Shown here: positions 21,159 to 21,274 of the stretch, one piece after another
Position numbering within the stretch: position 1 is the first letter of the stretch
How the letters are laid out: the number at the start of each line of letters is the position of its first letter
DNA from: a virus
Lineage: Duplodnaviria; Caudoviricetes
IMG/VR virus record: IMGVR_UViG_3300031603_000004
Span: 1 to 54,848 of that record
Strand: one strand, 5' to 3'
Length of the DNA stretch: 54,848 nucleotides
The notes under the pieces: model-generated
What the model was told of the DNA's origin: nothing
What the model saw: only the letters and a program-made list of their open reading frames with translations
Database searches by the model: none
Made by a program: the position numbers and the translations under genes

Positions 21159-21189
21159 AAAAAAACCCCTCAACAATCGTTAAAGGGGT
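21159..21189 (-). terminator. Attenuator terminator upstream of the Ser/Leu/Trp tRNA array
   Basis: ACCCCTTTAAC-GATT-GTTGAGGGGT followed by T-run. Confidence 0.85.
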
Positions 21190-21214
21190 GTAATTAACAA
21201 ATTGCGGTGCTATC

Positions 21215-21274
21215 TCATGTGTTTAACCATGATGAGGATAATAAACTGAGTGATAGTACCAAATTCTTTTTCAT
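21215..21274 (-). CDS. Leader peptide MKKNLVLSLSLLSSSWLNT (attenuator 1)
   Basis: 19-codon ORF; 12 of 13 central codons are Leu/Ser/Trp; followed by antiterminator/terminator and Ser, Ser, Leu, Leu, Trp tRNAs. Confidence 0.8.
   Translation of the reverse strand: MKKNLVLSLSLLSSSWLNT

What the first reader, a model, noticed from the sequence alone, without database searches (positions are those of the whole stretch)
21159..21274. Second MKKN attenuator: Leu/Ser/Trp leader gating a Ser-Ser-Leu-Leu-Trp tRNA operon
Seen: ORF MKKNLVLSLSLLSSSWLNT, with central codons TTG GTA CTA TCA CTC AGT TTA TTA TCC TCA TCA TGG TTA, precedes a terminator and then tRNAs Ser(GCT), Ser(TGA), Leu(TAA), Leu(TAG) and Trp(CCA). 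These read AGT, TCA, TTA/TTG, CTA and TGG, so every tRNA has a matching codon in the leader. Three mutually exclusive helices are visible: 1:2 AATTTGGTACTATC/GATAGCACCGCAATT, 2:3 GCAATTTGTTAA/TTAACGATTGT, and the 3:4 terminator. No promoter-family copy lies between the terminator and the tRNAs. It shares the MKKN start with the 47.8-kb leader and covers the amino acids that leader lacks. Inference: a two-part, feedback-controlled tRNA-replenishment system.
Basis: partly seen in the sequence, partly recalled or inferred. Interest (0 to 1): 0.93.

Follow-up and report, generated by a model that had tools for sequence, protein, structure and literature searches.

The report
Conserved mini-ORF and terminator before phage tRNAs
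An uncultured marine jumbo phage keeps a tiny Leu/Ser/Trp-rich reading frame plus a transcription terminator directly in front of its Ser, Leu and Trp tRNA genes, which may be a feedback switch for tRNA supply, although the switching RNA helix is not convincing at this site.

Summary
On the minus strand, the ORF MKKNLVLSLSLLSSSWLNT (21274..21215) is followed by a good intrinsic terminator (21187..21166 plus T7). Five bases later the Ser/Ser/Leu/Leu/Trp tRNA genes begin, with no copy of the phage's promoter family in between.

It is also conserved. Two related IMG/VR phage contigs keep the ORF, its Leu/Ser/Trp core almost codon for codon, a terminator, and tRNA-Ser(GCT) 5-9 nt behind it.

The 5' part of the element is a paralogue of the 47.8-kb MKKN leader. 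That leader has a conserved antiterminator overlapping its last codons, which looks like a genuine ribosome-sensing attenuator.

- The 2:3 antiterminator helix at this site is no better than chance.
- In this window, Ser(GCT) and Trp(CCA) are poor tRNAs.
- Strong promoters lie inside the large tRNA array, so the 47.8-kb terminator strictly gates only tRNA-Gly.
- In relative G005, a promoter follows Ser(GCT).

Verdict: this is a conserved, probably translated leader cassette. I give about 0.45 to leader-peptide attenuation of tRNA genes. I found no description of this in print. It is a new variant of a known mechanism.

The parts
21742..21770 (-). Consensus sigma70-type promoter (TTGACA-17-TATAAT) of the phage's promoter family. 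It is the nearest family promoter upstream of the leader.
   Evidence: 20 of the 21 pattern matches carry the family spacer, all on the minus strand, against 0.2 expected. The promoter is conserved in L001.
21303..21724 (-). Two small ORFs (63 aa at 21724..21533 and 83 aa at 21554..21303) between the promoter and the leader. They are absent in G005, where the promoter directly precedes the leader.
21275..21300 (-). 5' cassette (AGGAAAGGGTAAGTTAATATT) shared with the 47.8-kb leader. It holds a purine-rich Shine-Dalgarno-like stretch 12 nt before the ATG.
   Evidence: 2 copies in the window against 0.07 expected
21215..21274 (-). Leader mini-ORF MKKNLVLSLSLLSSSWLNT*. The core CTA TCA CTC AGT TTA TTA TCC TCA .. 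TGG is nearly invariant in the three genomes.
21252..21266 (-). Helix strand 1 (codons 3-8).
   Evidence: A topologically equivalent helix forms in L001 and G005.
21199..21214 (-). Helix strand 2, directly after the stop codon.
21159..21187 (-). Intrinsic terminator: stem-loop 21187..21166 plus T-run 21165..21159.
   Evidence: -11.6 kcal/mol. A terminator is kept in L001 and G005.
21067..21153 (-). tRNA-Ser(GCT)-like gene. It is degenerate in this window.
   Evidence: not detected; weak cloverleaf.
20971..21055 (-). tRNA-Ser(TGA)
20754..20846 (-). tRNA-Leu(TAA)
   Evidence: 57.9 bits
20673..20749 (-). tRNA-Leu(TAG)
   Evidence: 40.6 bits
20580..20650 (-). tRNA-Trp(CCA), marginal. It is found only at relaxed ARAGORN thresholds.
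47802..47891 (-). Paralogous leader B: ORF MKKNFRPEHIMNTTPVNGFDYTAKGMGMR*.
47807..47819 (-). Leader B antiterminator strand GGAAUGGGUAUGC (codons 25-29). It pairs with the terminator's 5' arm.
47743..47777 (-). Leader B intrinsic terminator with T-run.
47605..47677 (-). tRNA-Gly(TCC), the only tRNA between the leader B terminator and the next family promoter (47541..47513).

Best explanation
The element is one of two paralogous leader cassettes in a clade of uncultured marine jumbo phages. Each cassette is a short translated ORF followed by an intrinsic terminator, placed immediately in front of phage tRNA genes.

The most likely function is ribosome-dependent transcription attenuation:
- A ribosome that runs unhindered to the leader's stop codon lets the terminator form.
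- A ribosome that lags or stalls on the Leu/Ser/Trp codons in the apical part of the leader RNA frees the strand behind the stop codon. That weakens the terminator, so more transcripts read through into tRNA-Ser, tRNA-Leu, tRNA-Trp and the early genes behind them.

Shown here: the ORF, the terminator, their conservation, their paralogy, their exclusive association with tRNA genes, and a strong conserved antiterminator in the sister leader B.

Inferred: that leader A is translated, that stalling changes termination at this site, and that the signal is the supply of the cognate charged tRNAs.
For: (1) Anatomy: the ORF, the terminator, a tRNA 5 nt after the T-run, and no family promoter in between.

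(2) Composition: 12 of 18 residues are L/S/W. Among 321 small ORFs, 3 reach this level, this one included. Under proteome composition the binomial p is 1.2e-6. Each of the five downstream anticodons has a cognate codon in the ORF.

(3) Conservation:
- I counted about 91% identity over about 150 nt by hand on the alignment. I estimate the flanking ORFs by eye at about 65%, and the tRNAs are much more diverged.
- L001 differs at 6 codons: 4 synonymous and 2 Ser<->Leu swaps.
- With 7 random substitutions, the chance of no stop, at most 2 residue changes and L+S+W still at least 12 is 0.0035.
- G005 keeps the ATG, has a one-codon in-frame indel, and keeps the core CTATC(A/G)CTCAGTTTATTATCCTCA. It has an AGGAG 10 nt before the ATG, a different terminator, and Ser(GCT) about 9 nt behind it.

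(4) Paralogy with leader B: the 26-nt cassette pattern has 2 matches in the window against 0.07 expected, and 0 of 100 shuffles reach 2 (alignment). Within 3 mismatches, cassette matches outside coding sequence lie only beside tRNA genes in the three tRNA-bearing records: 2 in the window, 1 in G001, 1 in G005. The diverged G005 copy of leader A is not matched. One further 3-mismatch match in G005 lies inside a long ORF. None occurs in 8 tRNA-less clade contigs.

(5) Leader B is a credible attenuator:
- Its last codons form a helix with the terminator's 5' arm. In the window this is -14.5 kcal/mol, matched by 14 of 2000 shuffles.
- In G005 it is -16.8 kcal/mol, matched by 0 of 2000 shuffles.
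- The peptide there differs while the pairing is kept.
- The ORF is 29 codons in both genomes.
- Co-transcriptional folds show the antiterminator.

(6) Contigs of two runs from two other studies lie on 21186-21325, each with 5 differing letters.
Against: - The antiterminator at this site is weak: -3.0 kcal/mol before the 3' arm is made, -5.3 complete, against -11.6 for the terminator.
- It is not distinguishable from chance: 629 of 2000 shuffles and 273 of 652 natural windows do as well.
- In G005 the terminator is a 16-bp, -20.4 kcal/mol hairpin, and its best upstream competitor is unremarkable (222 of 1000 shuffles).
- In all simulated ribosome positions the terminator stays in the minimum-free-energy fold.
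- The leader hairpin is not significantly stable in the window or L001 (z -0.93 each). It is only in G005 (z -2.78).
- The Shine-Dalgarno-like stretch in the window is 12 nt from the ATG.
- In the window the leader follows two ORFs rather than a promoter.
- In G005 a family promoter follows Ser(GCT), so only one tRNA is strictly gated there.
- In the window a weak promoter-like site (9 of 12 matches) lies at 20883..20855, before Leu(TAA).
- In the window, Ser(GCT) and Trp(CCA) are poor tRNAs.
- Only three genomes are available and they share ancestry, so the match between peptide and tRNAs is essentially one evolutionary observation.
Confidence: 0.45

Rival explanations
1. The element is a small gene in its own right: a 19-20-residue Leu/Ser-rich peptide, possibly on a dual-function structured RNA, with an ordinary terminator. 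The tRNAs behind it are made by constitutive leak-through. The match between peptide composition and tRNA identities is coincidence.
For: - In G005 the unit is promoter, AGGAG, ORF and a strong terminator, which is how a stand-alone mini-gene looks.
- The peptide core LSLSLLSS(S)W is conserved.
- No convincing antiterminator exists.
- Leu/Ser-rich small ORFs are not very rare: 3 of 321 in this window.
Against: - Conservation covers the untranslated flanks as strongly as the ORF.
- The N- and C-terminal residues change freely (MKKNLV against MVFNAL; LNT against SNQLR). Ser and Leu swap positions in L001, which is odd for a structured peptide.
- The hydrophobic stretch of 13 residues with 5 Ser is too short for a membrane helix. 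This rests on general knowledge, not on a test here.
- The cassette's paralogue B is built as an attenuator.
- In 3 of 3 genomes a promoterless tRNA starts 5-9 nt behind the terminator.
Confidence: 0.22
2. The element is a conserved structured non-coding RNA, such as a 3'-UTR or small RNA, a processing site for the tRNA precursor, or a leaky insulating terminator. The reading frame is incidental. The invariant apical sequence UUUAUUAUCCUCA is a binding or seed site.
For: - Nucleotide-level invariance of an apparently unpaired apical stretch in all three genomes.
- A long hairpin of the same topology in all three, highly stable in G005 (whole-element z -5.3; hairpin z -2.78).
- Different sequences on both strands keep this pairing.
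Against: - The ATG is kept at the same codon position.
- The only indel inside the core is exactly 3 nt.
- G005 has a canonical AGGAG before the ATG.
- 4 of the 6 changed codons in L001 are synonymous, and no stop codon arises.
- No Rfam family matches the element. The best hit is 18.2 bits at E 6.7.
Confidence: 0.2
3. It is a chance ORF in AT-rich DNA next to the ordinary terminator of the upstream two-gene operon.
For: - The whole-element fold is not exceptional (z -0.41).
- About 1% of small ORFs are as Leu/Ser/Trp-rich.
Against: - The ORF is conserved in 3 of 3 relatives that have the locus.
- It forms an island of conservation.
- It has a paralogous cassette at the second tRNA site.
- The substitution pattern gives p about 0.004.
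Confidence: 0.03

Closest known systems
Ribosome-mediated transcription attenuators of amino-acid operons (trpL, hisL, leuL, thrL, ilvL, pheL of enterobacteria; recalled textbook knowledge)
   Same: A short leader ORF is enriched in codons for the very amino acids whose supply is at stake, and an intrinsic terminator directly follows it, before the regulated genes. A helix joins the leader's codons to the segment after the stop codon. In sister leader B, an antiterminator competes with the terminator.
   Different: - The regulated genes are tRNA genes of a phage, not biosynthetic enzymes.
- Leader A has no convincing antiterminator.
- In the window the leader follows two ORFs instead of a promoter.
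- Leader B has single codons of about 15 amino acids rather than a run of one kind.
pheM leader of the pheST operon (leader-peptide attenuation of an aminoacyl-tRNA synthetase; recalled)
   Same: Leader-peptide attenuation is applied to a component of the translation apparatus, giving feedback from the charged-tRNA level.
   Different: The product is a synthetase, not tRNAs, and the system is cellular, not viral. No sequence relation was tested or is expected.
T-box riboswitches (Rfam RF00230)
   Same: Functionally analogous: the tRNA charging status controls a terminator upstream of translation-related genes.
   Different: T-boxes bind tRNA directly and need no ORF. No T-box or any other Rfam family matched here.
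tRNA gene clusters of large phages such as T4 and T5 (recalled)
   Same: Arrays of phage tRNA genes are interspersed with small ORFs and homing-endonuclease-like genes, and are transcribed from early sigma70-type promoters.
   Different: I found no description of a leader-peptide attenuator in front of phage tRNA genes. Searches returned 12, 0 and 1 papers. I saw only titles and abstract openings, and none was on this subject.
Type I toxin mRNAs and other small hydrophobic ORFs (Ibs, TisB and others; recalled)
   Same: An ORF of about 19-20 codons lies on a highly structured RNA whose start region is paired.
   Different: The peptide is Ser-rich and only weakly hydrophobic. No antisense RNA gene was looked for or seen. 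The element is placed consistently before tRNA genes and has an attenuator-type paralogue.

Membership tests
Leader-peptide (ribosome-mediated) transcription attenuator | Short ORF with a start codon and a ribosome-binding site, kept in relatives | tested here: met
   The ATG-to-stop frame is kept in the window, L001 and G005. AGGAG lies 10 nt upstream in G005. In the window only a distant purine-rich stretch (12 nt away) is present. Translation itself is not shown.
Leader-peptide (ribosome-mediated) transcription attenuator | Leader enriched in codons that report on the regulated product | tested here: met
   12 of 18 (window) and 13 of 19 (G005) residues after the start are L/S/W. Each downstream anticodon has a cognate codon. 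The enrichment is kept through Ser<->Leu swaps.
Leader-peptide (ribosome-mediated) transcription attenuator | Intrinsic terminator between the leader and the regulated genes, with no promoter in between | tested here: met
   The gap to tRNA-Ser(GCT) is 5-9 nt in 3 of 3 genomes. Caveats: a weak promoter-like site lies before Leu(TAA) in the window, and a family promoter follows Ser(GCT) in G005.
Leader-peptide (ribosome-mediated) transcription attenuator | Antiterminator helix that excludes the terminator and is exposed by a stalled ribosome | tested here: inconclusive
   Leader A: the helix is geometrically possible in the window and, by my reading of the sequence, in G005, but it is weak (-3 to -5.3 kcal/mol) and not above chance. 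Leader B: clearly present, with 14 of 2000 and 0 of 2000 shuffles doing as well.
Leader-peptide (ribosome-mediated) transcription attenuator | Read-through responds to translation of the leader or to the supply of charged tRNA | not testable with these tools
   This needs reporter assays, coupled in vitro assays, or RNA 3'-end mapping. No RNA run was available.
T-box riboswitch | Match to the T-box covariance model (stem I, specifier loop, T-box sequence) | tested here: not met
   No RF00230 hit at E<=10 on 20560-21320, nor at E<=5 on the whole window.
tRNA genes downstream (five claimed) | Detected as tRNA by ARAGORN or the Rfam tRNA model | tested here: inconclusive
   3 of 5 are found at default settings and Trp(CCA) only at relaxed thresholds. 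Ser(GCT) is not detected, but it has a cloverleaf-like fold and good orthologues in L001 and G005.

The most novel reading that the evidence does not exclude
A phage-encoded, two-channel sensor of translational stress. Two paralogous leader peptides sample the codons served by the phage's own tRNAs: one covers Leu/Ser/Trp and the other most remaining amino acids. They raise transcription of the phage tRNA genes when ribosomes slow down, for instance when host tRNAs are depleted or cut by anticodon-nuclease defences. This would be the first leader-peptide attenuation that controls tRNA genes, and a regulated counter-defence.
Probability: 0.3. Interest if true: 0.9.

Novelty: new variant of a known kind. 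Interest (0 to 1): 0.72.

Why it matters
Phage tRNA genes are usually treated as constitutively expressed codon-usage or counter-defence cargo. A leader-peptide switch in front of them would mean the phage measures how well ribosomes decode particular codons and tops up exactly those tRNAs. That would extend a classic bacterial control principle, attenuation, to RNA genes and to viruses. It would also give a compact, portable sensor of tRNA availability. Even if leader A proves not to switch, the conserved pair of cassettes, and leader B with its clear antiterminator, are directly testable with simple reporters, because the promoters are sigma70 consensus.

Tried and rejected
- Close relatives were sought with the 431-aa and 83-aa neighbouring proteins in IMG/VR and none was found. 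The DUF2828/DUF7788 protein gave L001, and also L002 at 44% identity.
- L002/G002 has only 3 tRNAs with their own promoter and no leader, so it is not informative.
- The tail-sheath alignment found only the L001 contig again.
- Exact or degenerate leader patterns in IMG/VR found only that contig again, or nothing for leader B.
- Both metagenome scans found nothing.
- A GTDB genome scan with the leader pattern found nothing. With the promoter pattern it gave 17 single-copy hits in unrelated bacteria, which I take as chance.
- GenBank phages share only a tRNA-Leu with this region. The nearest tail sheaths are about 35% identical, so there is no cultured relative.
- Sequencing runs: no RNA holder was listed, so nothing can be said about expression or 3' ends.
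- The positions of the 5 differing letters in the two foreign contigs over the leader were not shown.
- The G001 contig ends before the leader B position.
- A third cassette-like match, in G005 at 177052, lies inside a long ORF and was rejected as chance.
- Other antiterminator candidates for leader A gave nothing usable. The Shine-Dalgarno region against the terminator 5' arm appears in co-transcriptional folds but never in full-length folds. My readings of the ORF 3' end against the 5' arm and of the apical UCCUCA against the 3' arm are too weak or not conserved.
- Strict column-by-column covariation of helix 1:2 could not be counted, because by my reading of alignment A5 the G005 helix is shifted by one register.

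Full report
CONTEXT

The window is a lone 54.8-kb virus record; the "genome" is the window itself. It has 30% G+C. It carries tail-sheath and head-tail-adaptor genes of jumbo-phage type. More than 23 tRNA genes lie on the minus strand.

No cultured phage is close. The best tail-sheath matches are about 35% identical, and DNA similarity to GenBank phages is limited to one tRNA-Leu. Sequencing runs that hold the stretch are marine and sediment metagenomes.

The minus strand carries a very uniform promoter family, TTGACAAAAAAAGAATAAT-N4-TATAAT. It accounts for 20 of the 21 pattern matches, against 0.2 expected.

THE OBSERVATION

Read on the minus strand, the sequence runs as follows:
- ATG AAA AAG AAT TTG GTA CTA TCA CTC AGT TTA TTA TCC TCA TCA TGG TTA AAC ACA TGA (21274..21215), giving MKKNLVLSLSLLSSSWLNT.
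- A 27-nt spacer.
- A stem-loop, CCCTTTAAC-GATT-GTTGAGGGG (21187..21166), followed by seven T.
- Five bases later, a tRNA-like sequence with a GCT anticodon loop.

Ser(TGA), Leu(TAA) and Leu(TAG) follow and are called at default settings. Trp(CCA) is called only at relaxed thresholds. Ser(GCT) is called by no tool, although it can fold into a weak cloverleaf.

No promoter-family copy lies between 21742 and 19157. One weak promoter-like site (9 of 12 matches) lies before Leu(TAA) at 20883..20855.

IS IT MORE THAN CHANCE?

- Among 321 ATG ORFs of 15-40 codons in all six frames, 3 (this one included) reach 12/18 Leu+Ser+Trp.
- Only the 47.8-kb ORF lacks L, S, W, C and Q.
- Only these two of 689 ATG ORFs of 10 codons or more start with MKKN.
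- None of the 47 long ORFs starts with MKK.
- The two ORFs share more than MKKN. A 26-nt cassette (TAAGnTAATAnnATGAnnAAGAATTT) occurs exactly twice in the window against 0.07 expected, and the 5' regions align.

RELATIVES

A protein 4.4 kb away led to the IMG/VR contig G001/L001 (83% identical protein). The promoter motif led to nine further contigs of the clade. Of these, only G005 (201 kb) carries tRNAs.

L001:
- It has the same layout: promoter, two small ORFs, leader, terminator, then Ser(GCT), Ser(TGA), Leu(TAA), Leu(TAG), Trp(CCA).
- From the end of the upstream ORF to the T-run I counted about 91% identity by hand on the alignment. I estimate the flanking ORFs by eye at about 65%, and the tRNAs are much more diverged.
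- Its leader reads MKKNLVLSLSLLSSLWSNT. Six codons differ: four synonymously and two as Ser<->Leu swaps, one of which needs two base changes.
- With seven random substitutions, the chance of no stop, at most two residue changes and Leu+Ser+Trp still at least 12 is 0.0035.

G005:
- A family promoter directly precedes the element.
- AGGAG lies 10 nt before the ATG, and the ORF reads MVFNALLSLSLLSSWSNQLR.
- The core codons are the same apart from one synonymous change and a one-codon deletion.
- The terminator has a different sequence (16 bp, -20.4 kcal/mol), and Ser(GCT) starts about 9 nt after the T-run.
- A further family promoter then precedes Leu(TAA), Ser(TGA), Trp(CCA), Leu(TAG) and Leu(CAA).

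Within 3 mismatches, cassette matches outside coding sequence lie only beside tRNA genes in the three tRNA-bearing records. The diverged G005 copy of leader A is not matched by the pattern. One further 3-mismatch match in G005 lies inside a long ORF and is taken as chance.

Contigs of two runs from two other studies cover 21186-21325, each with five differing letters. The positions of those differences were not reported.

RNA STRUCTURE AT LEADER A

Helix 1:2 joins codons 3-8 to the segment right after the stop codon. It is part of the minimum-free-energy fold in the window and in L001.

G005 forms a longer hairpin of the same topology from different sequence on both strands. It is clearly stable: whole-element z -5.3, hairpin alone z -2.78. 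In the window and L001 the hairpin alone is not significant (z -0.93 each).

- It is worth -3.0 kcal/mol before the terminator's 3' arm exists and -5.3 complete, against -11.6 for the terminator.
- As good a partner is found in 629 of 2000 shuffles and in 273 of 652 natural windows.
- With a ribosome footprint placed on successive codons, the terminator always stays in the optimal fold, both in the window and in G005.

By my reading of the sequences, strand 2 resembles the loop plus the upper 3' arm of the terminator in both the window and G005. This is the same design principle as in leader B, but it is an inspection, not a test.

LEADER B

The 29-codon ORF at 47891..47802 ends in AAA GGA ATG GGT ATG CGT TAA. 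GGAAUGGGUAUGC pairs with the terminator's 5' arm GCAUCCCUUCC at -14.5 kcal/mol. This is matched by 14 of 2000 shuffles. No natural window reached -15.8 and the best was -15.3.

The pairing is the optimal fold as long as the 3' arm is not yet transcribed. It returns when a ribosome is held at codon 20, and it is masked by a ribosome on the last codons.

G005 has the homologue MIKNFTKQTAINMTPEQNFDYRAMRKGEL, also 29 codons. There GGAAGGGUG, read in a different codon phase, pairs perfectly with CACCCUUCC at -16.8 kcal/mol, matched by 0 of 2000 shuffles.

This is what a ribosome-sensing attenuator looks like: fast translation to the stop codon leads to termination, and a lagging ribosome leads to read-through.

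Its regulatory reach is small, though. Only tRNA-Gly(TCC) lies before the next family promoter at 47541. Further promoters lie at 46296, 44596, 44234, 42714, 39926, 37451 and 35606.

The match between leader B's residues and the array is striking in the window. All 14 amino-acid specificities of the array occur in the leader, and only Tyr is extra. Simulation gives 6.6e-5 for lacking L, S, W, C and Q while covering all 14.

In G005 the match is looser: by my count, 21 of 28 residues. The G005 leader has Gln and Leu and lacks His and Val, and the G005 array has Gln early and no His or Val tRNA. That is suggestive co-variation from two genomes only.

INTERPRETATION

These points are firmly supported:
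- The element is conserved.
- Its reading frame is under constraint.
- It is a paralogue of an attenuator-like element.
- Both sit only in front of tRNA genes.
- In three genomes a promoterless tRNA gene can be transcribed only through this terminator.

It remains an inference that read-through at leader A is regulated by ribosome stalling on Leu/Ser/Trp codons. The missing piece is a credible antiterminator. I put 0.45 on the attenuator reading. The remainder goes to a stand-alone mini-gene or dual-function RNA with a leaky terminator (0.22), a non-coding structured element (0.20), and chance (0.03).

COMPARISON WITH KNOWN SYSTEMS

The element works most like the classical leader-peptide attenuators. 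It meets their features except the antiterminator, which is inconclusive here, and the physiological response, which is untestable here. It is not a T-box.

Three full-text searches returned 12, 0 and 1 papers. I saw only the listings, and none deals with attenuators in front of phage tRNA genes. The comparisons with trp/his/leu/pheM attenuators, T4/T5 tRNA clusters and type I toxins rest on recalled knowledge.

LIMITS

- Only three related genomes were available (two for leader B), and they share ancestry.
- There are no RNA data.
- Supplementary files were not needed.

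Noticed in passing
window minus strand, 20 sites (for example 803-831, 21742-21770, 47513-47541, 53353-53381): A near-identical promoter family, TTGACAAAAAAAGAATAAT-N4-TATAAT, makes up 20 of the 21 pattern matches, all on one strand, against 0.2 expected. The motif recurs on ten IMG/VR contigs, and many short contigs from other metagenomes match it with unrelated flanks.
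   Followed up: partly
L008:4228-4301 (G001), L035:6935-7009 (G005), window 44329-44397: Both relatives carry a tRNA with anticodon CTA (an amber suppressor, which ARAGORN labels Pyl) just upstream of the Met tRNAs. The window has, at the corresponding place, a tRNA with a 6-nt anticodon loop and no assignable anticodon. The G005 leader A ends in TAG, and its frame stays open through the terminator if TAG is read through.
   Followed up: no
L035:12024-12308 (G005): ARAGORN calls a tmRNA-like gene (tag peptide DETETYYAQVA*) just after the large tRNA array of the relative. Nothing comparable was called in the window.
   Followed up: no
window 34520-34623 (-), terminator 34516..34494: A tRNA-like sequence of about 104 nt has a good acceptor and T arm but roughly 30 extra bases in the middle. 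No tool calls it. A strong terminator and then a family promoter follow it directly. It could be the missing tRNA-Tyr, or an interrupted tRNA.
   Followed up: no
window 20580-21153 compared with L001:15387-16045 and L036:2061-3080: The Ser/Leu/Trp tRNA genes keep their identities but are far more diverged between the phages than the leader in front of them, and their order differs in G005. In the window, Ser(GCT), Ser(TGA) and Trp(CCA) have atypical T-loops or stems. Leu(TAG) is only 76-77 nt long in the window and L001, so it has no long variable arm.
   Followed up: partly
window 47680-47750 and L035:1845-1900: Directly after the leader B terminator, both phages keep a third copy of the purine motif (AGGGAAGGG), which resembles the terminator's 3' arm. 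In the window a 10-of-12 promoter-like site (47738..47709) overlaps this spacer before tRNA-Gly. In G005 an ORF with CxxC motifs is inserted and the tRNA-Gly looks truncated.
   Followed up: no
window 41532-41602, 45471-45542, 44468-44543, 39940-40007, 42173-42243: Additional weak tRNA-like hits are missed at default settings: Arg(TCT) at 30 bits, a second Asn(GTT)-like at 42 bits, a third CAT tRNA at 25 bits, Arg(TCG), and another with a 6-nt loop. No tRNA-Tyr was found.
   Followed up: partly
window 25690-27171 (-) and 19154-19435 (-): A 493-aa DUF2828/DUF7788 protein (PHROG label 'RNA-binding protein') is 83% identical in the relative and has its own strong terminator at 25661..25639. A thioredoxin gene lies downstream of the tRNA cluster, in the same promoterless stretch.
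   Followed up: no
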